Part shown: positions 1-24,537 of the stretch, piece after piece
How positions within the stretch are numbered: position 1 is the stretch's first letter
Layout: the number at the start of each line of letters is the position of its first letter
Notes under the pieces: generated by a model
Database searches by the model: none
What the model was told of the DNA's origin: nothing
Seen by the model: the letters and a program-made list of their open reading frames with translations, nothing else
Translations under genes and position numbers: made by a program
Assembly (NCBI GenBank): GCA_965217115.1
Contig: OZ244239.1
Span: forward strand, 1,938,791-2,002,790
DNA length: 64,000 nt
Source: Bdellovibrionales bacterium
GTDB taxonomy: Bacteria > Bdellovibrionota > Bdellovibrionia > Bdellovibrionales > CAYMLA01
Reading direction: 5' to 3'

Positions 1-207
1 AATTCCACCGGTGGCATTTTTATAAACAGTCTTTACCTTTATTCCCGTAGCGCCCTTAGAAAAGTTCCTATACATCTTAAAAAGAACGTCTTTCTTGTGA
101 GAGTCCATCTTATAAATAGTTCCTATTAATTTTTCTTTAGCAGATTGACCTTCAAAAGAAAAAGAAATTAAAACAAGGAAGGCGAATGTTTTTAAATAGA
201 TTGTCAC
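1..207 (-). CDS. hypothetical secreted protein, N-terminal part only (runs off the window edge)
   Basis: Own minus-strand translation. GTG at 207 is preceded by GGAGAG. MTIYLKTFAFLVLISFSFEGQSAKEK... stays open to position 1. Hydrophobic signal-like N-terminus. Absent from the ORF track because it is truncated. Confidence 0.35.
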   Translation of the reverse strand, partial: MTIYLKTFAFLVLISFSFEGQSAKEKLIGTIYKMDSHKKDVLFKMYRNFSKGATGIKVKTVYKNATGGI

Positions 208-295
208 GTCAATACTCTCCAAAAAGTTAAAAAGGTTATTCTCTATAAAGAGTATAGCCTTGTTTTAATTAAAATCTCAAGTAATGAAGGAAAAG

Positions 296-625
296 TTAAA
301 CACTGAAAGAAATGCCGCATCCACAGGACTTAGCAGCATTTGGATTCTCAAAAGTAAACCCATTGCCGTTTAAGCCACCATCGTAATCTAAGGTCATTCC
401 TATAAGGTAAAGATAGCTCTCTTGATCGACCACGACCTTCTCACCGTCATGTTCAAACTCATGATCCTTCGAGTCTTTCTCATTTCCAAAATCCATTTTA
501 TAGGACATTCCTGAACACCCCCCTTTCTTAATCAACACTCTGATAAAAGAGTCTGGTGTTAAAGAAGAGTCTTCTTCTTTGAGATTTTTGATTTTTTTAA
601 TAGCTTTTTCAGTCAAATGAATCAT
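296..625 (-). CDS. IscA/ErpA/HesB-family iron-sulfur cluster insertion protein
   Basis: 109 aa. Internal GGCSG motif and C-terminal CGCGxSF motif typical of A-type Fe-S carriers. Directly downstream of a cysteine desulfurase. Confidence 0.85.
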   Translation of the reverse strand: MIHLTEKAIKKIKNLKEEDSSLTPDSFIRVLIKKGGCSGMSYKMDFGNEKDSKDHEFEHDGEKVVVDQESYLYLIGMTLDYDGGLNGNGFTFENPNAAKSCGCGISFSV

Positions 626-694
626 AGCTCGACTCTACCATGATTGGGAATAAAGGTAAAATATAAAAGAATAATATAAAAGAATAATAGAAAA

Positions 695-1855
695 TTAGAC
701 TGTTTTCCGGCTTTTAGTATAAGCATTAATTAAAACCTCAGCAGCTTTCTCAATGTGTGCTGCCGTTGTCCAGCGTCCCAGCCCAAGGCGATAGGTTGTT
801 CGTGTAGAATCATCGCTGAGGCCAATGGCTTTGAGGACGTAGCTTCCGGCCGTTGAGGCTGAGGAACAGGCTGAGCCAGTGCTCACAGCGATAGGACTCA
901 AGTGGAGAAGCATCTCGTCAGGGTTGACGCCAGAAAACGAGAGATTTGCGTTATGGGAGAGGCGCTTCGTAGGATGGCCATTTACTTTTATGTCAGGAAT
1001 AGAATTTCGTACTTTCTCGACAAGTAGGTTTCGAAGGCCTTCAAGTCGACTATTCTCTTCAGCCATTTTTTCTATGGCTATTTCACAGGCTTTACCAAGA
1101 CCTACAATACCGGGAACATTGACAGTCCCTGAACGTAAATCCCTCTCCTGACCACCGCCGATAATTAATGGTTCTAAAAAACATTTAGGAGATTGGCTGC
1201 GGATAAAGAGAGCGCCACTCCCTTTAGGCCCGTAGATCTTATGCGCAGAGAGAGAGAGGAAATCGATTCCTAAGTCATTTACATCTATAAATATCTTCCC
1301 AATAGCTTGGGTGGCATCTGTGTGAAAAAAAACATCATTGGCTTTTGCGACCTTACCAATCTCTTTAATGGGATTAATAGTACCAATTTCATTATTGGCA
1401 AAAATAACACTTATAAGAATAGTGTTGCTCTTTATGGCATTTTTAATTTGTTCAGCTGAGATTTGTCCATACTGATCTACAGGGAGAATGGTGAGTTCTG
1501 CACCTTGCTTATGGGCTCTAGAAAATGGTTGTAGAATCGATTTGTGCTCGGCATTGGTGGTTATGATATGAGGTTTTCCCGGTCCTGCCCATTGATTTAA
1601 AATGCCTTGTAAAACCCAATTATTAGCTTCTGTAGCTCCGCTAGTAAAAGTAATCTCTTTGGGTTTAGCTCCGAGAATATTGGAAACCTGTTTACGTGCA
1701 GTATTGATAGCTGTATTTCCATCCCAACCATAGGAGTGCATGGAGCTTGATGGGTTGCCAAAAATTTTTGTAAAAAATGGGAGCATAGTTTCAAGAACGA
1801 GAGGGTCTACGGGGGTAGTTGCGTGGTAGTCCAAGTAAATTGGCATATCAGTCAT
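695..1855 (-). CDS. cysteine desulfurase (NifS/IscS family, class V aminotransferase fold)
   Basis: 386 aa. PLP-lysine motif SLSAHKIYGPKG, active-site loop STGSACSS, and HATTPVDP near the N-terminus. Confidence 0.9.
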   Translation of the reverse strand: MTDMPIYLDYHATTPVDPLVLETMLPFFTKIFGNPSSSMHSYGWDGNTAINTARKQVSNILGAKPKEITFTSGATEANNWVLQGILNQWAGPGKPHIITTNAEHKSILQPFSRAHKQGAELTILPVDQYGQISAEQIKNAIKSNTILISVIFANNEIGTINPIKEIGKVAKANDVFFHTDATQAIGKIFIDVNDLGIDFLSLSAHKIYGPKGSGALFIRSQSPKCFLEPLIIGGGQERDLRSGTVNVPGIVGLGKACEIAIEKMAEENSRLEGLRNLLVEKVRNSIPDIKVNGHPTKRLSHNANLSFSGVNPDEMLLHLSPIAVSTGSACSSASTAGSYVLKAIGLSDDSTRTTYRLGLGRWTTAAHIEKAAEVLINAYTKSRKTV

Positions 1856-2113
1856 TCGTTTTCCCTCAGTGTGTCAATATCTAATTTGTAACCACTTCAA
1901 CGTGTTTTTAACCGAAAGACTTTAAAAACAGGCCTAAGACGTGACTCTATTCTAATATCTGGTGGAGGTTTTTTTGACAAGATAAAAGAGCTTTTTTTGC
2001 CAGAGGTTTGCAGGATAAAAGAAGGTGTGAATTGTTTAGGAATCGTTGGCAAGGACTTGTCATTTTAGATCTTTGTGTTATATCCCATGTGTCAATTCCC
2101 TATTAATTTGGAG

Positions 2114-3325
2114 ATGATTGTGAATGATTTTCGTGAATTAGACCTCTTTAATCCCACAGAAGAACACACAATGTTGCGTGAAATGGTTGCGACTTTCACC
2201 CAAACGGAAGTAGAGCCGCAGGCCGAGGAATATGATCGAGAGGAAAAATTTAATCTAAAGTTATTTAGAAAACTAGGCACACTGGGTTTATTGGGAATCA
2301 CCGTTCCTGAAGAGTTTGGTGGCTCAGGGATGGATGCAGTGGCGGCTGTTATTGCCCATGAAGAGATATCCTATTCTGATCCAGGGTTTTGCTTAGCCTA
2401 CCTGGCCCATGCGATGCTTTGTACAAATAACATAGCTGTTAACGCTAGTGATGAGCAAAAGAGAAAATACCTACCAAAGCTTTGTTCAGGGGAATTTATT
2501 GGCGCCATGGCAATATCTGAGCCCCATGTAGGTACGGATGTCTTGGGCATGAGCACGACGGCTGTTAAAAACACTGAGGGTTATCTTATAAATGGTGAAA
2601 AAATGTGGATTACTAATGGGGCTGTCGATGACCAAAAGACCCTCTGTGATTGTGTGTTAGTTTATGCCAAAACAGGTGAAAAAAATGGCAGAGCATTACT
2701 CTCAACATTCATTGTCGATAAGAGAGATTCTGGATTTTTAGTTGGACAAAAGATAAAGGGAAAACTGGGAATGCGAGGTTCCAATACGGCTGAGTTGGTT
2801 TTTCAAAACTGCAATGTTTCATCGAAGTCCATTATTGGAGAAGAAGGCGACTCTATGTTACACATGATGAAAAATCTAGAGATTGAGAGATTAACCCTGG
2901 CTGCTCAAAGTATTGGTATAGCCCGTCGTTGCATAGATGTGATGGTGAAGTACTCTAATGAGCGAATTGCTTTTGGCAAGGAGCTATCTTATTTTGGTCA
3001 GATACAAAAATATATTGGTGAGAGTTACGCTGAGTATAAGGCGGCAAAGACCTATGTGTACAATACGGCAAGGGCCTTAAGTCTTTCAAATCATGGTCAT
3101 CGTTTGGATTCGGACGGAGTAAAACTTGTTGCAACGACGATGGCTAAGAGTGTAGCTGATCGAGCGATTCAAGTTCTAGGTGGTTATGGTTACGTGTCAG
3201 AGTATGTGGTGGAAAGACTTTGGAGAGATGCTAAACTATTAGAAATCGGTGGAGGAACTTTAGAGGCTCATCAGAAAAACATCACCTATGATTTATCTAA
3301 AAGTGACTTAAAAAGTGTTCTTTGA
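2114..3325 (+). CDS. acyl-CoA dehydrogenase (isovaleryl-CoA dehydrogenase-like)
   Basis: The ORF is open from GTG 2075. ATG 2114 (MIVNDFREL...) fits family N-termini better. Motifs seen: LGLLGITVPEEFGG, AISEPHVGTD, WITNG, and C-terminal RDAKLLEIGGGT. Confidence 0.85.
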   Translation: MIVNDFRELDLFNPTEEHTMLREMVATFTQTEVEPQAEEYDREEKFNLKLFRKLGTLGLLGITVPEEFGGSGMDAVAAVIAHEEISYSDPGFCLAYLAHAMLCTNNIAVNASDEQKRKYLPKLCSGEFIGAMAISEPHVGTDVLGMSTTAVKNTEGYLINGEKMWITNGAVDDQKTLCDCVLVYAKTGEKNGRALLSTFIVDKRDSGFLVGQKIKGKLGMRGSNTAELVFQNCNVSSKSIIGEEGDSMLHMMKNLEIERLTLAAQSIGIARRCIDVMVKYSNERIAFGKELSYFGQIQKYIGESYAEYKAAKTYVYNTARALSLSNHGHRLDSDGVKLVATTMAKSVADRAIQVLGGYGYVSEYVVERLWRDAKLLEIGGGTLEAHQKNITYDLSKSDLKSVL

Positions 3326-4241
3326 GGGGCCTGAAAAGAAGGTTGAAGTTATTATTAAAAAATCGTGGGGGTCTCTACGAGAAATACCTAAGAGGACTTG
3401 GAAAGATATTGTTCACAAAGCTAAGGCTTGTATCCTATCTCAAGTGAGTAACGAACATTGTGACGCTTATCTTTTGTCAGAGTCTAGTTTGTTTGTGTAC
3501 AATGACCATTTTGTGATGATCACCTGTGGAACGACAACTCTGGTGGAAGCTGTTACGGAGTTTCTAAAAACAGTGCCAGTGGATAATATCGAGACTCTTA
3601 TCTATGAGCGTAAGAACGAGCATTTTCCCCATTACCAGAAGTCAAATTTTTTTGAAGACATATATAAATTAGAAAAAATCTTACCAGGAAAAGCATGGCA
3701 GTTTGGTGATGAAGACAACCATCACCTTCTATTATTCCAGATGGGCAGTTCGTATCAGCCTGAAGAGGATGATATGACCGTAGAGGTTTTAATGCATGGG
3801 ATTCAAGGGGAAGCTAAAACTTTTTTTAAAGATATACATCAGTCTAAAGAAAAAATAAAAAAATTAAAAATAGCGGATATTTTTTCTGGTTTCTTGGTAG
3901 ATGACCATTTGTTTGAGCCATTGGGTTATTCTTTGAATGCCATAAAAGAAAACTGGTATTACACAATTCATGTGACTCCAGAAGAACTAGGTTCCTATGT
4001 GAGCTTTGAGACTAATTATTTTTTACAAGAAAGCTTGCACGAGATTGTCGAAAAGGTTTTAGCGATATTTCAGCCAGAATCTTGTGATGTGATTGTTTTC
4101 CATAAAGAGCAGAGAGGTGTTGAGGATTTAAAAGGTTATCGTTTACGAAGTCACATCGAAGAATATTTAGGTGGATACAGTGTTTCATTTAAGCATTTTT
4201 ATCAACCACAGTTGGGGCCGAAAAGGGCATTTAGGGTTTAA
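3315..4241 (+). CDS. S-adenosylmethionine decarboxylase proenzyme, eukaryote-type (class 2)
   Basis: 308 aa. FFEGPEKKVEV at the N-terminus. DAYLLSESSLFVY...ITCGTT matches the human autoprocessing site YVLSESSMFV...KTCGTT. HVTPEELGSYVSFETN matches HITPEPEFSYVSFETN. The GTG start overlaps the stop of the upstream gene. Confidence 0.85.
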   Translation: MFFEGPEKKVEVIIKKSWGSLREIPKRTWKDIVHKAKACILSQVSNEHCDAYLLSESSLFVYNDHFVMITCGTTTLVEAVTEFLKTVPVDNIETLIYERKNEHFPHYQKSNFFEDIYKLEKILPGKAWQFGDEDNHHLLLFQMGSSYQPEEDDMTVEVLMHGIQGEAKTFFKDIHQSKEKIKKLKIADIFSGFLVDDHLFEPLGYSLNAIKENWYYTIHVTPEELGSYVSFETNYFLQESLHEIVEKVLAIFQPESCDVIVFHKEQRGVEDLKGYRLRSHIEEYLGGYSVSFKHFYQPQLGPKRAFRV

Positions 4242-4298
4242 TCTTCTATTAAAAATAAAAAAGGCCTCGATCTTAACGATCGAAGCCTAAGAAGATTA
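4235..4298. repeat. 64-bp repeat module, copy 1, containing a bidirectional terminator-like hairpin (4262-4288)
   Basis: 58/64 identical to 6957-7020 by hand alignment. Stem GGCCTCGATC / GATCGAAGCC with an A-run on one side. The single C-A mismatch becomes G-U on the minus-strand transcript. Lies between convergent genes. Confidence 0.75.
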
Positions 4299-4320
4299 TT
4301 TAAACAAGACCAATGGGAAC

Positions 4321-4692
4321 CTACCAGTCTCCAAATTTTTTATCGATGGCGTCACCAATAAGATCTCCAAGACCACTGTCGGTGCCTTCCTGCTCACAAA
4401 CCATGTAGTCTTCATTATTTTTAAGTCTACGACAGACATTAGCATCAGATTTACTCCAGAAATCCACATGACCGCTGCATGCAGACGCCGCTTTGGATCT
4501 AGCTACAGCTAAAGTTTTGCCCTTACCTTCATAGTAGGATCTTCGACCAAAAGTATTAATTGGAGGATCATAGTGGCAGACCCACTCTCCTTCATCACCA
4601 TCTATAAGTTTACCAAAAACATCTCCTAGTTTGTTAGCAAAAACGCTTCCTGATACCAAAAGAACACTTAATACGATTAATGCTTTTTTCAT
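4321..4692 (-). CDS. small secreted cysteine-containing protein, unknown function
   Basis: 123 aa. N-terminal signal peptide MKKALIVLSVLLVSGSVFA and six Cys in the mature part. No recognised family. Confidence 0.6.
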   Translation of the reverse strand: MKKALIVLSVLLVSGSVFANKLGDVFGKLIDGDEGEWVCHYDPPINTFGRRSYYEGKGKTLAVARSKAASACSGHVDFWSKSDANVCRRLKNNEDYMVCEQEGTDSGLGDLIGDAIDKKFGDW

Positions 4693-4936
4693 TTACATGC
4701 CTCCCATGTTTTTTTATAAGTTAAGCCAAGGGTTGTAGTCTAAAAAAAATTTTGAGCCAAGTTATTCTGGTTATTCTGGAGGCTTTGAATTTTTTACAAA
4801 AAACGGGGTGTACATACCTCCATGTCTTCTCTATGATGGGAAGCAAATTGAAGGGCCATTTTTTTAATGCACTTTATTAGAGAACTAACCTAAGGTAGAA
4901 CGTCAATGATTTCTTTGTTTAATAGAGGTTTGATTT

Positions 4937-5839
4937 ATGGATAATGAGAATGAAATGCTTTATCGACATGCCGATATGTGGGTGACAGAGAAGTACAAAG
5001 ATCTCTTGAGAATATCCTACCGTATTAAGAAAACTTTATATTCTGAGCGAAGTGATTTTCAACAAATAGATATGGTAGACACTTTGGGATATGGTAAAAT
5101 GTTACTCAATGATGGGCTGGTTATGGTGACAGAGCGTGATGAATTTGCCTATCACGACATGATAGCACATGTGCCTTTATTTGTGCATCCCGATCCTAAA
5201 AAGGTTCTGGTGATTGGTGGAGGTGATGGCGGAACGATTCGTGAAGTTTTGCGCCATAAGAGTGTCGAGAAAGCTTGTTTAATCGAAATAGACCCTTGCG
5301 TCTTAGAGGCCTGTGAAAAACATATACCGCAGATGGCTAGTGCCTTAAAAGATAAACGATGCGTGGTTCGAGTAGAGGATGGGGTTAAGTTTGTCTCTGA
5401 GACAAAGGATAGGTTTGATGTTATTATTATAGATTCAACCGATCCTATTGGACCAGCAACACCCTTGTTCGGCGAAGAGTTCTATAAAAACGTGAAGGGA
5501 ATTCTTAAAGATAAAAATGGCATTGTTGTCTCTCAGGGAGAATCACCTTTTTATGGTGTTGTAGAACAGAAATCCTTATTAAAGGTCTTGAAGACACAGT
5601 TTGAGAGAGTTCATATGTATAATTTTTCTAATATGACTTATCCAGGGGGGTTGTGGTCCTTTACATTTTCCTCTGATGCCATTTGTCCTATTGCTGATTT
5701 TAAGAGAGAGCGAGTGAAGTTATCTAAAATGGAGTTTCAATACTATAATGCAGATATTCACAAAGGGGCATTTTTTCTACCACAATTTCAGAGAGAAAAC
5801 TTTAAGGGTATTTTGTCAGATCTACCAGGGGAATTTTAA
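4937..5839 (+). CDS. speE: spermidine synthase
   Basis: 300 aa. VLVIGGGDGGTIREVLRH SAM-fold motif, IIIDSTDPIGPA, and QGESPF. Confidence 0.9.
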   Translation: MDNENEMLYRHADMWVTEKYKDLLRISYRIKKTLYSERSDFQQIDMVDTLGYGKMLLNDGLVMVTERDEFAYHDMIAHVPLFVHPDPKKVLVIGGGDGGTIREVLRHKSVEKACLIEIDPCVLEACEKHIPQMASALKDKRCVVRVEDGVKFVSETKDRFDVIIIDSTDPIGPATPLFGEEFYKNVKGILKDKNGIVVSQGESPFYGVVEQKSLLKVLKTQFERVHMYNFSNMTYPGGLWSFTFSSDAICPIADFKRERVKLSKMEFQYYNADIHKGAFFLPQFQRENFKGILSDLPGEF

Positions 5840-6535
5840 TTGGCGAATCTTCGTTTTCCCTATAGCGATCCTCTAAAATATCAAGGGTATAGTTTTAGTG
5901 TAGATAAGGTGTTGTCCACTGTTGGCGAGATGCTCACGCAAGAGCGTCGACAGAAAATCACCGAAATCGTAGAGGACCGTACCTACAATGTGTGCCTTGT
6001 TCTAGATCAGATTTATGACAGGGGAAATGCCAGTGCAGTTATGCGTTCGGCGGAAGCGATGGGGTATCAAACGATTCATGTGATTGAAACAGATGAAAAA
6101 TTTAAGGAAGCCAATCGCGTGACTCAAGGAGCTGATAAGTGGCTTCATATTGAAAGGTGGAAGACCCCTATGGGTTGTGTTCAGCGTTTGAAAGCAGAGG
6201 GGTATCAAATTTGCGCGACAAGCCTGGAGGCGAGTGTACCTATATCAGAGGTTGACTTCACTCAACCGACAGCGTTGGTTCTGGGTAACGAAAAAGAGGG
6301 AGTGTGTCAGGAGATATTAACTCATTCTGATGTTAATGTGATTTTGCCAATGCAAGGCTTTGTTCAGAGTTACAATATTTCGGTTGCAGGAGCTTTATGT
6401 TGTTATCATATATATCAAGATCGTGTGAGACGTCAGGGCTTCCATGGGGACTTAAGTTCTCAAGAAAAGGAAATATTAAAAGCCCATTATTTTTTACGTT
6501 CTCAACCATTAGGGGTTGATGTTTTAAATCTATAG
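5840..6535 (+). CDS. trmH: SpoU-family tRNA (guanosine-2'-O)-methyltransferase (TrmH-like)
   Basis: 231 aa. The N-terminal region resembles E. coli TrmH. SpoU motifs [10 protein letters not shown] and [20 protein letters not shown] start abuts the speE stop. Confidence 0.75.
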
Positions 6536-6543
6536 GAGTTTTT

Positions 6544-6933
6544 ATGTCTAAAGAGAGTCAAGAAGCAAATAAATATGGAACGGAAATAATTAAAAATAAT
6601 AGATTGGAGGCCTTTGAGAATAGGACCCAGGTTCGTCGGTACACGGTTGATTTTAATTGTCCTGAGTTTACGTGTCTTTGTCCAATATCAGGCTTTCCAG
6701 ATTTTGCAACAATCAATATATCTTATGTTCCTGACAAGCAATGCGTGGAGTTGAAATCGTTAAAACTTTATCTTAATAGTTTTAGAGATAAAAATATTTA
6801 CCACGAGGATGTAACAAATATTATCCTACAGGATTTAATAGATCTACTGGACCCTTGGGAGGTTAAGGTAGAGGGAGACTTTAATGTGCGTGGTAATATT
6901 AAAACTGTTGTTACGGCATCCCATGCAAAATAA
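6544..6933 (+). CDS. queF: NADPH-dependent 7-cyano-7-deazaguanine (preQ0) reductase, unimodular type
   Basis: 129 aa. [18 protein letters not shown] catalytic-Cys motif and [13 protein letters not shown]...YHE motif. Confidence 0.9.
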
Positions 6934-6956
6934 ATGCACTCACTTTAGAGGGGAGC

Positions 6957-7020
6957 GGTTTAATCTTCTATTAAAAACAAAAAAGGCCTCGATCTTAATA
7001 ATCGAAGCCTAAAGACATTA
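6957..7020. repeat. 64-bp repeat module, copy 2, with a terminator-like hairpin (about 6985-7009)
   Basis: 58/64 identical to 4235-4298. Same position relative to a convergent pair (plus-strand housekeeping gene, minus-strand small secreted-protein gene). Confidence 0.75.
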
Positions 7021-7053
7021 AATCAGTCAGTGTGACCTTGAGAAACTAAAATA

Positions 7054-7500
7054 TTAGTCGTCTTCATTTTTAAGGATGAGTTTTACATATTTAGTCGATA
7101 TTGCAACCCCCTCACTATGAAGACAGATATAGTGTTTTCCATCAGAAGGCAGTATGGTGACAGCTTTGTCTTGATCAATGATGAGATCATCGGCTTGATC
7201 TTGCTCCTCATACTGCAAAATATTAAGTTCGTTGTCGCTATCACACGGGCCTTCAATATTATTCTTCTGATTGTAAGTGCATTCGTCAACTGCAGAGTAG
7301 AGAGAATAGCCTCGTAGAAACGCAACTTTTTTATCATTCACTTTCTTTATGAGAAGAGTGCAATAATTCTTCTTATAACCCGGCGGTTCGTCTGGATTGC
7401 TTGAATCAGTCGCAGAGGAGCCTCCTCCTGAACAATGGGTAAGAAAAACTGTGAGACCTATGTATAGGATCGTTTTTGTTAAATAACTTGTCGCTTTCAC
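7054..7500 (-). CDS. small lipoprotein, unknown function
   Basis: 148 aa. Signal peptide with lipobox LTHC followed by a Gly/Ser linker. Acidic C-terminal half. Confidence 0.6.
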   Translation of the reverse strand: MKATSYLTKTILYIGLTVFLTHCSGGGSSATDSSNPDEPPGYKKNYCTLLIKKVNDKKVAFLRGYSLYSAVDECTYNQKNNIEGPCDSDNELNILQYEEQDQADDLIIDQDKAVTILPSDGKHYICLHSEGVAISTKYVKLILKNEDD

Positions 7501-7849
7501 TGTATTAAACTCCTTAGTCGAAATCCCAGTCGTTGAGACTTATAAAAGCAAAGAGTGTACCAAGTGAAAATGGACCTAAGGCTAAGAAAGTCTGGTTTTT
7601 TGTTTAAAGACTCTCAGGTGTATAAAAGATATTTGTTTTTCTTAAGATTTCAGGAGTTATTCCCGTTGTTTTTCCATATAACTGGCTTCCTTTAATGGGC
7701 AACCCTATGATTAGAGAGTGCCTGTCGTTTAGATCTGCGACGAAAGTCTCGTTAATTTTGAAAAAAACCTGGGCAAACTGTAATTTTTTGTCGATTTATT
7801 GCACTTACTTGGGTAGAGACTAAATATAATTAAAAACAAGGGAGATATC

Positions 7850-10308
<2,459 letters not shown>

Positions 10309-10340
10309 TTAGATGAATAGGCAAGATGTCGTTCGGAGAT

Positions 10341-11336
10341 TCATGCTATGTCGCAATGGGCAATTGATGATGAATGTCTTCGGTACCATTGCCTGTCAGG
10401 AGGGAGAAGATCATCTAAGGATTCGTTGTTGAAGTGGGCTTCAACTTTGTTAAGGGATTCTAAAGAAGATTTTCTGAGTGCTTCGTTCGTTGTCACTCCT
10501 AGATGGGGTGAGAGGATGACATTGTCACAATGGAGTAGGGGGTGACCGAGAGGGAGAGGTTCCTGTTCAAACACATCTAAACAAGCACCTGCTATGATTT
10601 TTTTTTGCAGAGCTTCTACGAGGTGACCTTCGTGAACGGTAGAACCACGGCAAGCATTTATGAGAAGACACCGTGGGGGCATCTTAATTAAATTATTCTT
10701 ATTTATCATGTGATGCGTTTCCTGGGTGAGGGGAACGTGAAGGGTGACGACATCAGAGTTTCTAAGCAGATCATCTAACTGTGAATAGCGCGTGTAGTTT
10801 AAGTTTTCCCCGTTCACATATGGGTCATGGTATTGAATTTGGCAGCCATAAGCTTTGAGTATACGGGCCACGTGCTGCCCGATGCGGCCCATGCCGACAA
10901 CACCTATTTTTTTTCCTTCTAATTCAGAGCCTATTAACTGTGAGCGATCCCAGTGGGCTGAGTGAATTTGTTTCGTCGCTTGGAATATTTTTTTAAAGAA
11001 ACAATGGAGTAATAACAAGGTGAGCTCTGCAGTGCTGGCAATATGAGCATTGGGCGTGTGCGCAGTGGCGATGTTAGATTTTCGTGTTGCATCTAAATCA
11101 ATGTGATCAAAACCACTAGTGGCCGTAATAATAAGTTCTAGATGGGGGCAGAGTTTTAAAAAATCGGTTGTGATTTTTGTTTGTGAACGAATGATAATGG
11201 CGTTTGCAGTTTGCAATTGCCGTTGAATTTCTTTTTCTGTTGGCCCAGCGATTTCGATATCAAAGGGCCAGGGCTTCTCTTTAAGGAGTGTTTTATCAAA
11301 GCGGCCAATAATAAGAGTTTTTGGTTGATTTTCCAT
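10341..11336 (-). CDS. D-isomer-specific 2-hydroxyacid dehydrogenase (phosphoglycerate dehydrogenase-like, no ACT domain)
   Basis: 331 aa. NAD-binding GVVGMGRIGQ, a catalytic-region RG...E...H pattern, and location downstream of a class-V aminotransferase. Confidence 0.75.
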   Translation of the reverse strand: MENQPKTLIIGRFDKTLLKEKPWPFDIEIAGPTEKEIQRQLQTANAIIIRSQTKITTDFLKLCPHLELIITATSGFDHIDLDATRKSNIATAHTPNAHIASTAELTLLLLHCFFKKIFQATKQIHSAHWDRSQLIGSELEGKKIGVVGMGRIGQHVARILKAYGCQIQYHDPYVNGENLNYTRYSQLDDLLRNSDVVTLHVPLTQETHHMINKNNLIKMPPRCLLINACRGSTVHEGHLVEALQKKIIAGACLDVFEQEPLPLGHPLLHCDNVILSPHLGVTTNEALRKSSLESLNKVEAHFNNESLDDLLPPDRQWYRRHSSSIAHCDIA

Positions 11337-11342
11337 GGGTGC

Positions 11343-12485
11343 TTATTCGTACTGGCTTAGAGGTTTAAGGGTTAAGAGCGATTTTTCTAATTGATTCTCA
11401 GTGATACTAGGGATTGTTTTTTGTAGGGCGATAAACAAGAGTTCGTAATTTTTTTTAGTAATATATCCCATGTGTCCAATACGTAGAATTTTACCCTTTA
11501 ACTGGTCTTGTCCTCCCATGGTAGTCATGTCATGAATTTGTTCTAATTGGGAACGAACAGTCTGGCTGTCTATGGAGCCTTCGGGAAGTTCAACGGCAGT
11601 TAAAGAGGGGCTTGGGTGAAGGGGGAAAATTTTAAACCCCATTTCTAAAAGTCCTTGGCGCACACACTGAGCTCTTAGGGAGACTTTATTAAGATGTTGT
11701 TTCAGAGATGGAGTTAATAGCTCCTGTAAAGCGGAATGTAGGCTTCTTATTAAAGTAACAGGAGAGCTAAAGTGAGTTTGTCTCTTCTTGTAAGATTTAA
11801 ACTCAGCTTCGAGGTCCCAATAAAATTTAGGGCAGGAGGATTTTCGTGACGCTTGCCATGCTTTTTCTGAAAGGCAGATGAAGGAAAGCCCTGTCGGAAG
11901 CATGAAAGCTTTTTGTGAACCGGCAATTAAAACATCAATACCCCATTTATCAAATGGGAGATCATAGGCGCCGACAGCTGTGATACCATCGACAATGAAG
12001 AGGGTTGATTGATATTGATGCTGTAAAATTTGACCGATGTCTTTGATTGGATGAATAGCTCCTGTGCTTGTTTCGCAAGCTTGTGTGATGACGGCACGAC
12101 ACTGAGGATTTTCCTTAAGGAGGGATTTTATTTTCTCAATCTCTGCGCTCTCTCCCCAGGAAACAGCATAGGGGATGACTTCAACTCCGTAGGCTTGACA
12201 TATCTGTGACCAGCGTTGTCCAAACTTACCTGACTCAATAACGATGACTTGTTCTTTAGGTGATAGGGTATTAACTATGGCGGCTTCCATAGCTCCACTT
12301 CCAGTTGAACATAAAGTGAGAACGGGCTGTTCGGTTTGGAAAACCTTCTTGAGATTTTGTGCAACATTTTGAAAAATCTCTTCAAACTCTGGAGTGCGAT
12401 GATGAATTATTGGCTGAGATAAGGTCTCTAGAATTTTTGGTGAACAGGGAACTGGGCCTGGTGTGAGGAGATTTTTGTGACTCAT
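11343..12485 (-). CDS. class V aminotransferase (serine-pyruvate / phosphoserine aminotransferase-like)
   Basis: The ORF is open from 12551. ATG at 12485 (MSHKNLLTPGPV) matches the family N-terminus. The SQKAFMLP PLP-lysine region is present. Confidence 0.8.
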   Translation of the reverse strand: MSHKNLLTPGPVPCSPKILETLSQPIIHHRTPEFEEIFQNVAQNLKKVFQTEQPVLTLCSTGSGAMEAAIVNTLSPKEQVIVIESGKFGQRWSQICQAYGVEVIPYAVSWGESAEIEKIKSLLKENPQCRAVITQACETSTGAIHPIKDIGQILQHQYQSTLFIVDGITAVGAYDLPFDKWGIDVLIAGSQKAFMLPTGLSFICLSEKAWQASRKSSCPKFYWDLEAEFKSYKKRQTHFSSPVTLIRSLHSALQELLTPSLKQHLNKVSLRAQCVRQGLLEMGFKIFPLHPSPSLTAVELPEGSIDSQTVRSQLEQIHDMTTMGGQDQLKGKILRIGHMGYITKKNYELLFIALQKTIPSITENQLEKSLLTLKPLSQYE

Positions 12486-12781
12486 TATCCCATTCTCATT
12501 GTTAGAGGAAAAGACGTCAAGTAGAGATGGTCCCATTTCCACGTCCAACACGCTCTATAGAGTTCTTTTATGGGGTCTTCCATCTTTAGTTCATATCAGA
12601 CAATGACTGGACTAATGTCGATAGCCAAGTCTAAAAATAGGCCCCATGTTCTCTATAGAGCAAGGGGTGTGCTCGACTCTTCTGAAACATACTGCGATGG
12701 GCATAGGCAAAATATTTTTCTTTAAAACACTCTGTCAGTTAGAGTAGTATATTGCATGTTTTGTGAAAAAAGGAGTTTTTA

Positions 12782-15448
12782 GTGCAACCGCAGAAAATAT
12801 ATTTAAAAGATTATCAGAGATCAGATTTTCTTATTGAAACCGTGACGATTCAATTTGATCTTTACGAAAGTCATACGCGAGTTACGAATGAGATGGTTTT
12901 TTATCAAAATAAAGAGATAGAGAGAATATCTAATGATCTCTCTCTGGATGGAGATGGTTTAGAAATTTTGAGTCTAAAAATAATGTCAATAGAGGATTCA
13001 GATGCGTCTAATGGTGAATGGAATGTGTTAAAGGAAACAGAGTACAGCAAGTCTAAGAATGGGTTAAAGATATGTCATGTTCCAGAGAAATTTAAGTTGC
13101 AAGTGGTAACAAAGATTTTTCCGGAGAAGAACACTTCCTGTGAGGGTCTTTATAAATCTGATGGATTTTATGTGACTCAAAATGAAGCTCAGGGTTTTCG
13201 TAAAATAACTTACTTCCTCGATCGTCCAGATGTGATGTCATTGTATAAAACGGTAATAACTGCGGATAAAGAAAAGTACCCTGTCTTGTTATCCAATGGG
13301 AATTTGCTAGAAGAAAAAACTTTGCAGGGAGGTCGCCATCAAGTTGTGTGGGAAGACCCTTTTAAGAAGCCTTGCTATCTTTATGCACTTGTGGCTGGGG
13401 ACATGGGCATGATTAGAGGTGCGTTTGTAACAAAGAGTGGGCGCCATGTAGATTTACGTATTTATAGCAATAGAGGAAACGAAGATCGTTGTTCTTATGC
13501 GATGGAGTCTTTGCAGCGTTCAATGAAGTGGGATGAAGAGCGCTTTGGCTTAGAGTATGATTTGGATATTTATATGATTGTGGCAGTGAATAGTTTTAAT
13601 GCAGGAGCGATGGAGAACAAAGGGTTGAATATTTTCAATGCGAGCTATGTTTTGGTAGATTCGCAGACAGCGACAGATAGTGATTTTCGCAATGTAGAAG
13701 CTGTGGTAGGCCATGAGTATTTTCATAATTGGACTGGAAATCGTATTACGTTGAGAGATTGGTTTCAGTTAAGCTTAAAAGAAGGACTAACGGTGTTTAG
13801 AGATCAGGAGTTTGTCTCTGACCTCCACTCTCGAAGTGTAAAAAGAATTGATGATGCGAAGCACCTGCGGAATAGCCAATTTGCTGAGGACGCTGGTCCG
13901 ATGGCCCATCCTGTGAGACCAGAGTCGGTGTTTTCTGTGGATAATCTTTTTTCATTAACGATTTATGAGAAAGGAGCTGAGCTTATTCGCATGCTTTATA
14001 CTTTCTTGGGGAGAGAGGGGTTTTGCCAAGGGATAGGTAAGTATGTGGAGCTTTACGATGGGCAGGCGGTGACGACAGATAATTTCATACATGCTATGGA
14101 GTTGTCTAGTGGTCGTGAGTTTTCTCAATTTTGTCGTTGGTACAGTCAAGCAGGGACTCCAAAATTATCTGTTCAAGGTGATTATAATGAAAAGGATCAA
14201 GTCTATACACTAGAGATGGAGCAGTCTTGTGAGTCCACTCCAGATCAACCGGGGGACTTAAAAGAACCTTTTTATTTTCCTTTATCAATGGGTCTTTTAG
14301 GGGAGGATGGCGAAGAGCTAAATTTAGTTATTAATGGTAAAAATTTAGGAAAAGAGGCAACGTTGACAGTTTCAGAGAGAAGGCATCTTTTTAAGTTTGA
14401 GGGTGTAAAGAGAAAACCTATCCCGTCTTTCTTAAGAGAATTCTCCAGTCCGATTCATTTAGAGTTTAATTATAGCGATGATGAGTTGAGTTTTTTAATG
14501 GTTCATGAAAAAGACTCTTTTGTTCAATGGGAGGCGATGCAAGAGTTGACCTTGCGTGTGCTTAGAGAAAAAGTCGATCCTCTCAGAGATGGAAGCGGGG
14601 AAACTGAGGCTTTGGCTAGTTATTTACAGGCTTATGGGGCCTTGTTAAAGAGAGAAGATTTAGATTTAGCTTATAAAGCACAGCTCATAGAGCTTCCGAA
14701 TTTGAGTTATTTAGCAGAGACAATTGGGTGGCATCATTTGGAGAGGGTCTGCGAAGCCAGAGTTTTCTTATCGAGGGCTTTATTTGAGATCTATGAAAGG
14801 TCCTTTTTGGATATTTATAGCCGTTTAAATATTGTGAATGACTATGATTTATCTCACGCAGAGATAGGGCGTAGAAGCTTAAAAAAATGTTGTCTGCAGT
14901 TTTTATTAGAGGGATCGGAGAGTTACAATGCTCTTGGTGTAGAGCAATTTAAGAAAGCTAATAATATGACAGACAAATTAAGTGCTTTATCAGCGCTATC
15001 TCGTAGAGAGAGTTCTGAGGCTTCAAAACTGCGGGAAGAATTTTATAATGAGTACAAAGGTAAGCCGTTGGTTTTTAATAAATTTTTAAAAGTAGTGGCT
15101 CACGCTGAATCTACGGGTTTAGATGAGTTAAGGGAAGTGGCAGAGCTTCCTGAATTTGACATGAATAATCCTAATTGTGTTCACAGTCTTTTCCATGGGT
15201 TTGCCTCTCAAAATATAAAGTCATTCCATAATGGGGATAATGACTGTTATGGTTTTTTTGTGAACTTAATCTCAGACAGAGATAGGGAAAATGCCCATGT
15301 CGGGTCTCGTTTGGCTTCGGTGTTTAATATATGGAAAAAATTGAGTATTGAACGCCAGGAAAGAATAGAGCCGCTGCTTAAAGGCCTTATTGATGGTGGC
15401 AAATTGTCAAGTAATAGCTACGAAATAATTTCTAAAAGTTTTCCGTGA
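12782..15448 (+). CDS. pepN: aminopeptidase N (M1 family)
   Basis: 888 aa. GAMENKG exopeptidase motif and HEYFHNWTGNR...E zinc motif. Confidence 0.95.
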   Translation: MQPQKIYLKDYQRSDFLIETVTIQFDLYESHTRVTNEMVFYQNKEIERISNDLSLDGDGLEILSLKIMSIEDSDASNGEWNVLKETEYSKSKNGLKICHVPEKFKLQVVTKIFPEKNTSCEGLYKSDGFYVTQNEAQGFRKITYFLDRPDVMSLYKTVITADKEKYPVLLSNGNLLEEKTLQGGRHQVVWEDPFKKPCYLYALVAGDMGMIRGAFVTKSGRHVDLRIYSNRGNEDRCSYAMESLQRSMKWDEERFGLEYDLDIYMIVAVNSFNAGAMENKGLNIFNASYVLVDSQTATDSDFRNVEAVVGHEYFHNWTGNRITLRDWFQLSLKEGLTVFRDQEFVSDLHSRSVKRIDDAKHLRNSQFAEDAGPMAHPVRPESVFSVDNLFSLTIYEKGAELIRMLYTFLGREGFCQGIGKYVELYDGQAVTTDNFIHAMELSSGREFSQFCRWYSQAGTPKLSVQGDYNEKDQVYTLEMEQSCESTPDQPGDLKEPFYFPLSMGLLGEDGEELNLVINGKNLGKEATLTVSERRHLFKFEGVKRKPIPSFLREFSSPIHLEFNYSDDELSFLMVHEKDSFVQWEAMQELTLRVLREKVDPLRDGSGETEALASYLQAYGALLKREDLDLAYKAQLIELPNLSYLAETIGWHHLERVCEARVFLSRALFEIYERSFLDIYSRLNIVNDYDLSHAEIGRRSLKKCCLQFLLEGSESYNALGVEQFKKANNMTDKLSALSALSRRESSEASKLREEFYNEYKGKPLVFNKFLKVVAHAESTGLDELREVAELPEFDMNNPNCVHSLFHGFASQNIKSFHNGDNDCYGFFVNLISDRDRENAHVGSRLASVFNIWKKLSIERQERIEPLLKGLIDGGKLSSNSYEIISKSFP

Positions 15449-15599
15449 TTTTTTGAATATAATTATGGGCTTTTTATGGGGGTGGGTGGGAATTCTCTTC
15501 TGGAGCTATTCCCTAATCCCATTGTTTTTATTGATAAAAGGGAGTTTGAAGGGGGAGGGGCTAAAAAATAACGCGTAGAGTCACAGGATTGAGCTATAG

Positions 15600-16406
15600 T
15601 TGGAGTTTTCACAAAAAAAAATGTACTCTTTATACCTACTTTGCGAACCTTTTCTGGGGGAGCTAAGGGGGGTCATGCTTAGATTTAGAAAATTGGAAAC
15701 AGAGGCAGATCTACAGGAATTCTGTGATAGTTACGGTCGTTCTGTTAGCAAGAGAATCGGCGAAAATTATCGCACCACCCTAGCTGGAGCGATGAAAAAG
15801 ACGAAGGTCGTTGGGGTTTACCAGAACGGAGAGATGATTGGTGGTTATGCTCTGAGTAAAGTGCCCCACACAGCACTGGGCCTTCTCACTGAAGAGAATA
15901 AAAATAAAATGAGAGAGATGGCACCTCTTGAGTCGTTCTGCGATTTAGGGAGTATTTGGAAAAAAAAGGGATTCTCAAAGTTTCTTTTTAAGAATATTGT
16001 CTGGCCTAGAATTATGTTGGAGACTCTTTTCTTTTATCCTAGCAAGAAAAACATCATCGGTTATGTGGCGACAGGACATGGTCGAGCAGATGCCTACTTT
16101 CTTGCGAAGCCAGTCTATCTACAAAACTCAACTGTTACGGGTGAGGTGAATGTTTTTGTTTTAGATAGAAAAACTTTATTACTTGCTTTTTTGGCGGCCT
16201 TCCTCGTTGAGTCGTTTGTAAAACCTTTTAAGCGTTTAATAAAAAAAACCCACACTCCCCCAGAGAGCAAACAAGTTTTTAAACAGAATTTAGATTTCGA
16301 CTTTAAGGAAGATAGCCAAAGAGATAAAGGTCGAGATAGAGATAGAGATAGAGATGTCCTTCCTCAAGAGGAAGGGTTTAAAGAAGATTTTAGTGATCTC
16401 ACTTAA
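15600..16406 (+). CDS. hypothetical protein, possible GNAT-fold acyltransferase with a charged RD-repeat tail
   Basis: 268 aa. VVGVYQNGEMIGGYAL and GSIWKKKGFSKFLF resemble the GNAT beta4/alpha3 region. The assignment is weak. C-terminal RDRDRDRD is encoded by a GAGATA repeat. Confidence 0.45.
   Translation: MEFSQKKMYSLYLLCEPFLGELRGVMLRFRKLETEADLQEFCDSYGRSVSKRIGENYRTTLAGAMKKTKVVGVYQNGEMIGGYALSKVPHTALGLLTEENKNKMREMAPLESFCDLGSIWKKKGFSKFLFKNIVWPRIMLETLFFYPSKKNIIGYVATGHGRADAYFLAKPVYLQNSTVTGEVNVFVLDRKTLLLAFLAAFLVESFVKPFKRLIKKTHTPPESKQVFKQNLDFDFKEDSQRDKGRDRDRDRDVLPQEEGFKEDFSDLT
16333..16355. repeat. hexanucleotide tandem repeat (GAGATA) x about 3.8
   Basis: Read directly. It encodes RDRDRDRD in ORF 15600..16406 and ends in the ATG (16354) of the next ORF. 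Confidence 0.9.
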
Positions 16407-17094: not shown

Positions 17095-17340
17095 AAAATC
17101 TTATCAGCCCAGGCTTTATGGAATTCAATCAGCACGACAGATGAGTTGTTCACAATAAGTGCAGTCATTCAAAATAGCCTGACAGACTCCTATGAACCCC
17201 CTTGGGCTTTAGGAAAAGAACCTGACTCCGCCTTTGTTAACTATGGGTTTGGCCTATGATAATAAATGAAGTGACCTCTTTTAAGGGATGTTCTAGAATA
17301 TAGCAGATTTAAACCTTTCTTTGCTGGAGTTGGAGGAATA

Positions 17341-21998: not shown

Positions 21999-22092
21999 CC
22001 ATGGCAGTTGTACTGATCAGATAGAGAGATATTAAGAGCACTCTTCTCCTGAAAGACTTGCATCCTTTTGGAGTGCCTGGCAATCTATTGTT

Positions 22093-24111: not shown

Positions 24112-24129
24112 AGAAAGTTTAAGAGAGGG

Positions 24130-24402
24130 TTAGCCTGTTTTTTCTGTTTTCTTGTAGGTTCCACGGCGATATTGCTGGAGATTGGGATAATCGCAGATTT
24201 TCTTAGAGATCATTTCAATGACCTCTTCTCTAAGGTCTTGCTCGATTTCGTTTAATGCAGATTCAACGATACCTCCTTGCTGCATAAGAAGATATATGTA
24301 TTCAGTCACGACGTGATGGATGAGTTCCTGTTCATGGTCAAATTTTATTTGAGAAGAATGGATGTGTTTGTCAAAAATTTGATAAAGAGGATCGTCGTTC
24401 AT
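24130..24402 (-). CDS. hypothetical small acidic protein
   Basis: 90-aa ORF with an ATG start. No recognised motif. Confidence 0.4.
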   Translation of the reverse strand: MNDDPLYQIFDKHIHSSQIKFDHEQELIHHVVTEYIYLLMQQGGIVESALNEIEQDLREEVIEMISKKICDYPNLQQYRRGTYKKTEKTG

Positions 24403-24537
24403 TTGTCTATTCTAACAAATATTTCCATTAAATGAAGGGCCAGGTAGGTTTTTATCTAAAAGCTGGCCTATGGTTTTTATTTTAATTTTTATTTGGTTTT
24501 GTGGCACTTTGAGGAGAAGTCCTTTATAATTAGTAAC

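What the first reader, a model, noticed from the sequence alone, without database searches (positions are those of the whole stretch)
3315..4241. Eukaryote-type (class 2) S-adenosylmethionine decarboxylase in a bacterium, linked to speE
The 308-aa ORF carries the hallmark motifs of the eukaryotic AdoMetDC proenzyme. These are FFEGPEKKVEV at the N-terminus, the Glu-Ser autoprocessing site in LLSESSLFV followed by TCGTT, and HVTPE...SYVSFETN. Typical bacterial AdoMetDC enzymes (SpeD/SpeH, class 1) are shorter and lack these motifs. The gene sits one gene away from spermidine synthase (4937..5839). This fits a functional polyamine module, possibly acquired by inter-domain transfer or representing a rare bacterial class 2 lineage.
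Basis: partly seen in the sequence, partly recalled or inferred. Interest (0 to 1): 0.6.

Follow-up and report, generated by a model that had tools for sequence, protein, structure and literature searches.

The report
Bacterial class 2 AdoMet decarboxylase gene
This bacterial gene does encode the "eukaryote-type" form of S-adenosylmethionine decarboxylase, next to its partner spermidine synthase, but such bacterial versions were reported in 2019 and belong to a large, diverse bacterial family, so this is a correct but fairly ordinary find.

Summary
ORF 3315..4241 (+) encodes a 308-aa protein that matches Pfam PF01536 (class 2 AdoMetDC) end to end at 241 bits, with no class 1 hit. All quoted motifs are present. 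Every catalytic, self-processing and AdoMet-binding residue of the human enzyme is conserved. A confident AlphaFold model (pLDDT 92) superposes on the human proenzyme at TM 0.89.

The host is an uncultured Bdellovibrionota bacterium. The gene has native codon usage and overlaps the upstream gene by 11 nt. In the closest relative it sits directly against speE. In the window a small reverse-strand gene has been inserted between the two.

The gene is not rare. About 2,500 clusters at 90% identity and more than 150 at 50% identity form a short, roughly 310-aa family, whose identifiable members are bacterial: Elusimicrobiota, Bdellovibrionota and Myxococcota. 35 of 37 genome loci carry speE immediately downstream.

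Bacterial class 2 AdoMetDCs were already described by Li et al. 2019 (cited in PMC10407285), who attributed them to transfer from eukaryotes.

Verdict: a real, probably functional spermidine module and a new member of a known kind. Interest is low to moderate. Which domain the class 2 enzyme arose in remains open.

The parts
3315..4241 (+). Class 2 S-adenosylmethionine decarboxylase proenzyme gene (308 aa, GTG start)
   Evidence: ORF. PF01536 at 241 bits, full length. Human proenzyme 1msv/1jl0 at E 1.5e-37. AF2 model with pLDDT 92, TM 0.89 to 1jl0.
3315..3482 (+). Predicted beta chain (residues 1-56), ending at Glu56. Carries F3, E4, E7 and E11 (human F7, E8, E11 and E15).
   Evidence: Residue map to human AdoMetDC. 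These columns are invariant in 45 bacterial homologs.
3483..3485 (+). Ser57 codon, the predicted pyruvoyl precursor (human Ser68). Cleavage is predicted between E56 and S57.
   Evidence: Invariant in 45/45 bacterial homologs and in 12/12 eukaryotic sequences.
3483..4238 (+). Predicted alpha chain (residues 57-308), with C71, F200, S206, H219 and E223 (human C82, F223, S229, H243 and E247) and the acidic pocket D153/T155/E157/E232
2075..3325 (+). Upstream acyl-CoA dehydrogenase gene. Its stop overlaps the AdoMetDC start by 11 nt, so the two are probably co-transcribed and translationally coupled.
   Evidence: The same 11-nt overlap occurs in syntenic L038.
4262..4288 (-). Intrinsic-terminator-like hairpin (11-bp stem) with its T-run on the minus strand. 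It lies between the convergent ends of the AdoMetDC gene and the 123-aa ORF.
   Evidence: A near-identical copy lies at 6984..7010.
4321..4692 (-). Inserted 123-aa ORF with a signal-peptide-like N-terminus, a GGGAGG Shine-Dalgarno sequence and no family hit. It separates the AdoMetDC gene from speE.
   Evidence: Absent from syntenic L038, where speE follows the AdoMetDC gene after 12 nt.
4937..5839 (+). speE, a spermidine synthase / polyamine aminopropyltransferase (300 aa) of bacterial type
   Evidence: NF002010 at 338.6 and TIGR00417 at 311.8, both above cutoff. Best PDB matches are B. subtilis 1iy9 and T. maritima 1inl.
5840..6933 (+). Downstream genes probably co-transcribed with speE: a TrmH-like SpoU methyltransferase (5840..6535) and preQ1 synthase QueF (6544..6933). 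These are context only, not part of the polyamine module.

Best explanation
The ORF encodes a genuine class 2 AdoMetDC proenzyme in an uncultured Bdellovibrionota bacterium.

Inferred mechanism, by homology with the human enzyme:
1. The single chain folds into the two-lobe four-layer sandwich.
2. It cleaves itself between Glu56 and Ser57 by serinolysis, assisted by His219 and Ser206.
3. This yields a 56-residue beta chain and a 252-residue alpha chain whose N-terminal Ser57 becomes the pyruvoyl cofactor.
4. AdoMet binds with its adenine stacked between Phe3 and Phe200 and its ribose on Glu223. It forms a Schiff base with the pyruvoyl group and is decarboxylated, with Cys71 as proton donor.
5. 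The product, dcAdoMet, is used by the bacterial-type SpeE encoded 0.7 kb downstream to aminopropylate putrescine, giving spermidine.

The ancestral arrangement was an abutting speD-speE pair. In this genome a small secreted-protein gene with its own terminator was inserted between them, so the decarboxylase is now expressed with the upstream acyl-CoA dehydrogenase and speE with trmH-queF.

Shown here: family, fold, residue conservation, synteny, distribution. Inferred: self-cleavage, activity, spermidine as end product.
For: PF01536 at 241 bits, full length, with no class 1 hit. Human proenzyme at E 1.5e-37, with the ES site aligned. All ten human catalytic, processing and AdoMet-binding residues are identical in the window protein. 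Nine are invariant in 45 bacterial homologs, and the tenth is E or Q. The AF2 model has pLDDT 92 and pTM 0.91. It has TM 0.89 and 2.5 A rmsd to 1jl0/1msv, whereas class 1b T. maritima covers only a third (TMq 0.28). speE passes two equivalog cutoffs. speE lies immediately downstream in 35 of 37 genome loci, in L038 (72% identical speE, 12-nt gap) and in L039 (4-nt overlap). Class 2 AdoMetDC-SpdSyn fusion proteins exist. Codon usage is native. The literature states that some bacteria encode class 2 AdoMetDC (PMC10407285).
Against: There is no biochemical test. TIGR00535, NCBI's equivalog model for AdoMetDC, scores 175.5, below its 233.15 cutoff. The eukaryote-invariant Lys80 is replaced by Ile69, so regulation or proton relay may differ. 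No putrescine-forming enzyme was seen among the ORFs of at least 150 aa scanned in the 64-kb window. Here speD and speE are no longer in one transcription unit. In other subclades the gene is not next to speE, and Li et al. 2019 (title cited) argue for a polyamine-independent role in some bacteria.
Confidence: 0.85

Rival explanations
1. The enzyme is an active AdoMetDC, but its dcAdoMet serves a polyamine-independent purpose, as proposed for some bacteria whose AdoMetDC co-occurs with an MFS-SpdSyn-like fusion and which lack spermidine.
For: The title and citation of Li et al. 2019. Several subclades have the class 2 gene next to non-speE partners: Methyltransf_30, or a NadB-like flavoprotein with or without metK. 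In the window speD and speE are now separate transcription units.
Against: The window's speE is a canonical stand-alone enzyme that passes the NF002010 and TIGR00417 equivalog cutoffs. It scores only 35.9 against the MFS_SpdSyn model, below that model's cutoff of 40, so it is not an MFS fusion. speE directly abuts speD in the closest relative and in 35 of 37 loci. Natural fusions exist.
Confidence: 0.07
2. The protein is a neofunctionalised pyruvoyl decarboxylase acting on L-ornithine or L-arginine. This has happened repeatedly in class 1b SpeD homologs.
For: There is a class 1b precedent (PMC10407285). No putrescine-forming enzyme was seen in the window.
Against: The adenine-stacking Phe pair (F3, F200) and the ribose-binding Glu223 are conserved. 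The gene is tightly linked to speE, whereas the published criterion for neofunctionalised homologs was absence of speE or presence of a second speD. No such case is reported for class 2.
Confidence: 0.03
3. The protein is a catalytically dead, non-processing regulatory paralog, like the trypanosomatid prozyme.
For: Prozyme chains are among the structural matches (5tvm_E and others).
Against: Identity to prozyme is only 16-17%, against 28-31% for active enzymes. The ES site and all catalytic residues are intact and invariant. No second class 2 or class 1 copy was seen in the window.
Confidence: 0.02
4. The gene is a eukaryotic contaminant or an assembly chimera, not a bacterial gene.
For: The protein's only solved structural relatives spanning its full length are eukaryotic.
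Against: The gene overlaps the upstream bacterial gene by 11 nt. It has no introns, and its GC, GC3 and codon usage are native. The same synteny is seen in an independent assembly, L038. There are 37 further bacterial genome loci. An identical protein lies on a 2.17-Mb contig.
Confidence: 0.01

Closest known systems
Bacterial class 2 AdoMetDCs described by Li, Kurihara, Kim, Liang & Michael 2019 (Biochem J 476:2579), as cited in PMC10407285
   Same: A eukaryote-type single-chain AdoMetDC encoded in a bacterial genome. As I recall the abstract, these were shown to be enzymatically active and judged phylogenetically limited and acquired from eukaryotes. That paper is not held in the library, so only the citing sentence was verified.
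   Different: This copy comes from an uncultured, divergent Bdellovibrionota lineage: 68% identity to its nearest relative and about 50% to the rest. The present census suggests the bacterial family is much larger and more diverse than 'some bacteria' implies.
Human AdoMetDC (AMD1; PDB 1jl0, 1msv, 1i7b)
   Same: The fold (TM 0.89) and about 31-34% identity. Also shared are the Glu-Ser processing site, the residues F7, E8, E11, C82, F223, S229, H243 and E247, and the acidic putrescine pocket D174/T176/E178/E256/E15.
   Different: The window protein is 26 residues shorter, because surface loops are trimmed. Lys80 is Ile69, and Leu13 is Lys9. There is no uORF-type regulation. It sits in an operon-like bacterial context.
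Plant AdoMetDC (potato, PDB 1mhm; Arabidopsis SAMDC1)
   Same: Class 2 fold (TMt 0.83). A basic residue at the human-L13 position: plants have Arg, bacteria have Lys.
   Different: Plants also carry F111R, D174V, F285H and Y318R, which fill the putrescine pocket. The bacterial clade keeps the human and yeast residues at those four positions. The role of the plant substitutions is from my memory of Bennett et al. 2002.
Prokaryotic class 1b and 1a AdoMetDC (SpeD/SpeH, PF02675; T. maritima 1tlu/1vr7)
   Same: The same reaction and the same pyruvoyl chemistry. A class 1b protomer superposes on part of the model (117-122 columns, TMt 0.65-0.69).
   Different: There is no detectable sequence match (no PF02675 hit). 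Class 1 enzymes are homodimers of one-lobe protomers, whereas this is a single two-lobe chain with one processing site.
SpeD-SpeDC two-domain fusion proteins of Lentisphaerota, Omnitrophota and Desulfobacterales (PMC10407285)
   Same: Bacterial two-lobe AdoMetDC-type proteins, proposed as models for the origin of class 2.
   Different: Those are recognisable fusions of class 1b-type sequences, of 271-318 aa. The window protein is a full PF01536 class 2 sequence with no class 1 sequence signal.

Membership tests
Class 2 AdoMetDC (Pfam PF01536 SAM_decarbox) | Full-length match to the family profile above the gathering threshold | tested here: met
   241.2 bits against a cutoff of 22.2, covering profile positions 3-342 of 343
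Class 2 AdoMetDC | Single polypeptide forming the two-lobe four-layer alpha/beta sandwich (a pseudo-dimer of class 1b-like halves) | tested here: met
   AF2 model with pLDDT 92 and pTM 0.91. TM 0.89 and 2.5 A rmsd over about 313 columns to the human proenzyme. Class 1b covers only 117-122 columns, TMq 0.28. This is a prediction, not an experimental structure.
Class 2 AdoMetDC | Internal Glu-Ser autoprocessing site in the LSESS context, followed by TCGTT | tested here: met
   E56-S57 aligns with human E67-S68. Invariant in 45/45 bacterial and 12/12 eukaryotic sequences.
Class 2 AdoMetDC | Catalytic and processing residues (human E8, E11, C82, S229, H243) | tested here: met
   E4, E7, C71, S206 and H219 are all identical to human and invariant in 45 homologs
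Class 2 AdoMetDC | AdoMet-binding residues (human F7, F223, E247) | tested here: met
   F3, F200 and E223 are present. F3 and F200 are invariant. The E223 column is E in 24 and Q in 21 of the homologs.
Class 2 AdoMetDC | Actual self-cleavage to alpha and beta chains with a pyruvoyl group, and AdoMet decarboxylase activity | not testable with these tools
   Needs expression, mass spectrometry and an enzyme assay or speD complementation
NCBIfam TIGR00535 SAM_DCase (equivalog model) | Score at or above the curated trusted cutoff | tested here: not met
   175.5 bits against a cutoff of 233.15, covering model positions 1-295 of 334. The protein should therefore not be filed as a member of this narrowly defined equivalog, which I presume was trained on eukaryotic sequences. 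This does not bear on class 2 membership.
Putrescine-activated subgroup of class 2 (human/yeast type) | Acidic putrescine pocket (D174, E178, E256) plus the relay residue K80 | tested here: inconclusive
   D153, E157 and E232 are conserved, but K80 is Ile69, and a clade-specific Lys9 appears at the human-L13 / plant-Arg position.
Class 1 AdoMetDC (SpeD/SpeH, PF02675) | Match to the prokaryotic AdoMetDC profile; protomer of about 120-265 aa | tested here: not met
   No PF02675 hit at E <= 0.01 and no class 1 NCBIfam hit
Spermidine synthase SpeE (partner gene 4937..5839) | Scores above the equivalog cutoffs; N-terminal tetramerisation domain plus aminopropyltransferase domain | tested here: met
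   NF002010 at 338.6 against 260, and TIGR00417 at 311.8 against 249.55. PF17284 plus PF01564. Substrate specificity (putrescine or another amine) was not tested.

The most novel reading that the evidence does not exclude
The short (about 310-aa) bacterial class 2 family may not be a minor offshoot of a 'eukaryotic invention'. It may instead be an old, diverse bacterial lineage (Elusimicrobiota, Bdellovibrionota, Myxococcota) with its own active-site-adjacent signature: Lys at human L13, a hydrophobic residue at human K80, and Glu or Gln at human E247. If so, class 2 AdoMetDC could have arisen in bacteria and passed to the eukaryotic stem.

What the evidence shows: the split between bacteria and eukaryotes is clean (199/200 bootstraps). 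The bacterial sequences are not nested in animals, fungi or plants. Their internal divergence (maximum Kimura distance 1.88) exceeds the distance between animals, fungi and plants (1.28-1.38).

What it cannot exclude: no protists were sampled, the tree is unrooted neighbour-joining, and faster bacterial evolutionary rates could explain the divergence.
Probability: 0.15. Interest if true: 0.65.

Novelty: new member of a known kind. Interest (0 to 1): 0.25.

Why it matters
For this locus, it matters little. It annotates a probable spermidine biosynthesis module (class 2 AdoMetDC plus SpeE) in an uncultured Bdellovibrionota genome and shows how an ancestral speD-speE pair was split by a gene insertion.

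More broadly, the census made here suggests that the bacterial class 2 family is far larger and more divergent than 'some bacteria'. It has a conserved operon with a bacterial-type speE, natural fusions to SpdSyn, and a clade-specific swap of the buried lysine. That makes the direction of the inter-domain transfer, and so the origin of a core eukaryotic polyamine enzyme, worth re-testing with modern sampling. The Lys9/Ile69 swap also gives a simple testable handle on how putrescine activation evolved.

Tried and rejected
1. Exact look-ups of the window's own proteins (AdoMetDC, PurA, SpeE) found no contig on record. The source genome could not be named directly, so taxonomy was inferred from PGK relatives.
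2. The listing of cluster members gave no accessions or names.
3. The key paper, Li et al. 2019, is not held. Only the citing sentence could be verified. Two further literature searches found nothing specific on Bdellovibrionota or Elusimicrobiota class 2 enzymes.
5. The first tree attempt timed out. It was replaced by vectorised Kimura-distance neighbour-joining with 200 bootstraps. No maximum-likelihood software was available.
6. The eukaryote-bait search returned only vertebrates, Saccharomycetes and Brassicaceae. Whether bacteria nest among protists could not be tested.
It is not a fair taxonomic census.
8. Model coordinates were not exposed to scripts, so Lys9-to-pocket distances could not be measured.
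9. Recent horizontal acquisition was considered and rejected on the evidence of native codon usage and GC and parallel identity ladders.
10. Co-import of speE from a eukaryote was considered and rejected, because speE's best solved relatives are bacterial.
11. A viral vector was considered. No full-length class 2 match exists in BFVD.
12. The PHROGs, Pfam and NCBIfam scans of the inserted 123-aa ORF found nothing.
Full report
**Observation.** It contains every quoted motif. These are FFEGPEKKVEV at residues 2-12, LLSESSLFV at 53-61, TCGTT at 70-74, HVTPE at 219-223 and SYVSFETN at 227-234. Glu56 is at 3480-3482 and Ser57 at 3483-3485. The match is far beyond chance: Pfam PF01536 (SAM_decarbox) scores 241.2 bits (E 2.2e-71) over profile positions 3-342 of 343, and no class 1 family (PF02675) appears at E <= 0.01. 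The spermidine synthase at 4937..5839 is real and passes two NCBIfam equivalog cutoffs (NF002010 338.6/260, TIGR00417 311.8/249.55). One ORF, of 123 aa on the minus strand (4321..4692), lies between the two genes.

**What the protein is.** The best solved relatives are the human AdoMetDC proenzyme entries 1msv and 1jl0 (E 1.5e-37 and 2.4e-36), with the Glu-Ser site aligned to human E67-S68. I aligned the window protein to the human sequence. The only two differences were the engineered H243A of 1jl0 and one insert-state residue. Every residue known to matter in the human enzyme maps to an identical residue:
- F7, E8 and E11 map to F3, E4 and E7.
- E67 and S68 map to E56 and S57.
- C82 maps to C71, and F223 to F200.
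- S229, H243 and E247 map to S206, H219 and E223.

The roles of these residues come from my knowledge of the human structural literature. They are partly echoed in the PDB entry titles: the S68A processing mutant, the H243A ester intermediate, the F223A mutant, and the D174N, E178Q and E256Q putrescine mutants. In an alignment of 45 bacterial homologs, nine of these ten positions are invariant, and the tenth (E223) is Glu in 24 and Gln in 21.

An AlphaFold2 model built on that alignment is confident (mean pLDDT 92.0, pTM 0.91). It superposes on the full-length human proenzyme with TM 0.89 and rmsd 2.5 A over about 313 columns. The class 1b Thermotoga enzyme covers only 117-122 columns (TMq 0.28). 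So the class 2 assignment holds by sequence, by key residues and by predicted architecture.

One caveat applies. NCBI's equivalog model TIGR00535 scores 175.5, below its trusted cutoff of 233.15. The protein therefore lies outside that narrowly defined group, consistent with its being a separate clade.

**Host and local organisation.** The window is ordinary Gram-negative chromosome. It carries an Fe-S assembly gene and a cysteine desulfurase, purA, msrAB, pepN, an RND efflux pump with an outer-membrane factor, tmk-holB, gap-pgk-tpi, sodB and a tRNA. All named relatives of its PGK are Bdellovibrionota (Bdellovibrionales, Pseudobdellovibrionaceae, Bdellovibrio sp.). An identical protein lies on a 2.17-Mb contig.

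The AdoMetDC start overlaps the stop of the upstream acyl-CoA dehydrogenase by 11 nt. The gene's GC (0.367), GC3 (0.347) and synonymous codon usage are typical of the window (z = +1.35 among 28 genes). The identity ladder of AdoMetDC homologs (100, 68, 68, 61, about 52%) matches that of PGK (100, 66, 65, about 60%). The gene is therefore a long-term resident, not a recent import.

The contig of the closest relative (L038, 68% identical) is syntenic with the window: Fe-S assembly, cysteine desulfurase, acyl-CoA dehydrogenase, AdoMetDC, speE, QueF, MsrAB and PurA in the same order. It has the same 11-nt overlap, but there speE follows the decarboxylase after only 12 nt, and the 123-aa ORF is absent. 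The small ORF in the window has a GGGAGG ribosome-binding site, a signal-peptide-like N-terminus and its own hairpin terminator at 4288..4262. It therefore looks like an insertion that split an ancestral speD-speE pair.

**Distribution.** The word-indexed search of 5.8 billion proteins found 2,523 homologs at E <= 1e-5. The best 120 all carry PF01536, almost all are about 305-345 aa, and they are 44-68% identical to the window protein. Those with names come from MAGs of Bdellovibrionota, Myxococcales, 'Deltaproteobacteria', Elusimicrobia and Pseudomonadota.

The exhaustive phmmer search of 1.84 billion 50%-identity representatives found 1,930 at E <= 1e-3, 1,209 at E <= 1e-10 and 366 at E <= 1e-30. 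The best 150 score 178-315 bits, above the 132.6 bits of the human enzyme, and are nearly all 300-340 aa.

A scan of species-representative genomes returned 37 loci: 30 titled Elusimicrobia or Elusimicrobiota, one Candidatus Endomicrobium, four titled only 'bacterium', one Bdellovibrionota and one Myxococcales. That scan was biased by the query's own peptide words. In 35 of those 37 loci a speE homolog (48-58% identical to the window's) begins at or within about 100 nt of the end of the class 2 gene, on the same strand. One of the two exceptions is truncated at the gene's end.

Two database proteins, P0274 and P0296 (633 and 620 aa), are natural class 2 AdoMetDC-SpdSyn fusions. The linkage is not universal, however. 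In other subclades the class 2 gene is followed by a Methyltransf_30 gene or by a NadB-like flavoprotein with or without metK, or it stands alone (and L036).

**Relationship to eukaryotic enzymes.** I used human, yeast and Arabidopsis sequences as bait. This gave vertebrate, Saccharomycete and Brassicaceae sequences.

I built a Kimura-distance neighbour-joining tree of 33 short-type and 12 eukaryotic sequences (309 columns, 200 bootstraps). It separates the two groups in 199 of 200 replicates. The bacterial group is not nested in animals, fungi or plants. Its internal divergence (maximum 1.88) exceeds the distances among the three eukaryotic lineages (1.28-1.38). This is a rough, unrooted analysis without protists. 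It cannot decide the direction of transfer.

The partner speE is bacterial in type, with best solved relatives B. subtilis 1iy9 and T. maritima 1inl ahead of all eukaryotic ones. The pair was therefore not imported together from a eukaryote. No full-length class 2 fold was found in the BFVD viral library, in line with PMC9992855.

**A clade-specific detail.** The alignment reproduces the plant-specific substitutions I recall from the plant enzyme literature: L13R, F111R, D174V, F285H and Y318R. It also shows a third configuration in the bacterial family. The acidic triad D174/E178/E256 is kept, as in human and yeast. The Lys80 that is invariant in the 12 sampled eukaryotes (vertebrates, yeasts, Brassicaceae) is Ile, Leu or Met in 33 of 33 sequences. 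A Lys occupies the human-L13 (plant-Arg) position in 31 of 33.

**Mechanism.** By homology, the proenzyme should cleave itself between Glu56 and Ser57. This gives a 56-residue beta chain and a 252-residue alpha chain that carries the pyruvoyl cofactor. The enzyme should decarboxylate AdoMet, with the adenine stacked between F3 and F200, the ribose on E223 and C71 as proton donor. The resulting dcAdoMet is handed to SpeE, which aminopropylates putrescine to spermidine. The fold, the residues and the genetic linkage are shown here. Cleavage, activity and the final product are inferred.

The rival explanations are each much less likely, for the reasons listed against them:
- a polyamine-independent use of dcAdoMet
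- neofunctionalisation to an ornithine or arginine decarboxylase
- a prozyme-like dead paralog
- eukaryotic contamination

**Comparison with what is known, and verdict.** Bacterial class 2 AdoMetDCs are already in the literature. [quoted passage not shown] 2019, Biochem J 476:2579. As I recall it, that paper also showed enzymatic activity, but it is not held in the library.

This is a new member of a known kind, and interest is low to moderate (0.25).

Some value remains in three points. The bacterial family is large and deeply divergent. It has a conserved operon with a bacterial-type speE. And it carries its own lysine-swap signature. Together these keep open, at perhaps 15% probability, the more novel reading that class 2 AdoMetDC is of bacterial rather than eukaryotic origin.

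Noticed in passing
window 4262..4288 and 6984..7010 (minus strand): Two nearly identical 27-nt hairpins, each followed by a T-run. They differ by 2 mismatches, both in the loop, and 0 matches are expected by chance. Each lies just downstream of a small minus-strand ORF with a signal-peptide or lipoprotein-like N-terminus and no family hit (4321..4692, 123 aa; 7054..7500, 148 aa). This may be a shared terminator module of small inserted secreted-protein genes. No copy was found in any related locus.
   Followed up: partly
window 4321..4692 (-): A 123-aa orphan ORF with a strong GGGAGG ribosome-binding site and a signal-peptide-like start. It is inserted between the AdoMetDC gene and speE, and is absent from the syntenic relative L038, where the two genes are 12 nt apart. 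No Pfam, NCBIfam or PHROGs hit.
   Followed up: partly
P0274 (633 aa) and P0296 (620 aa): Natural single-chain fusions of a class 2 AdoMetDC (PF01536) with a spermidine synthase (PF17284 + PF01564). The published AdoMetDC-aminopropyltransferase fusions that I am aware of involve class 1b domains. Their taxonomic source is unknown.
   Followed up: partly
L044 3501..5179 (contig of P0023): In this subclade the class 2 AdoMetDC gene overlaps by 1 nt a downstream PF05430 Methyltransf_30 gene (241 aa) instead of speE. This could be a different dcAdoMet- or AdoMet-using partner.
   Followed up: no
L041 5001..8951 and L045 3501..6085 (contigs of P0074 and P0067): Here the class 2 AdoMetDC gene is followed by a NadB-like flavoprotein (FAD_binding_2 / Succ_DH_flav_C, about 537 aa) and, in L041, by metK (AdoMet synthetase). 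There is no adjacent speE.
   Followed up: no
Alignment A3, columns for window residues 9, 69 and 223: A signature specific to the bacterial clade. Lys occupies the human-L13 position (31/33; plants have Arg). Ile, Leu or Met occupies the eukaryote-invariant K80 position (33/33). The ribose-binding E247 position is split between Glu (14) and Gln (19).
   Followed up: partly
L038 4792..6011 and 7854..8045: In the closest relative's contig the acyl-CoA dehydrogenase is called as three consecutive ORFs (159, 119 and 153 aa), and trmH is reduced to a 63-aa remnant matching only the first 50 residues of the window's TrmH. This reflects either gene decay or frameshift errors in that assembly.
   Followed up: no
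window 1..64000: GC skew is positive in 31 of 32 2-kb bins, and cumulative skew rises steadily to about 6. Most long genes are on the + strand, so the window probably lies on one replichore, well away from the origin and the terminus.
   Followed up: no
window 33957..34742 (+) and 62589..63389 (-): Two DUF4423 proteins, one also carrying an HTH_3 domain, lie about 28 kb apart. This is a paralogous family of unknown function, and I did not examine it further.
   Followed up: no
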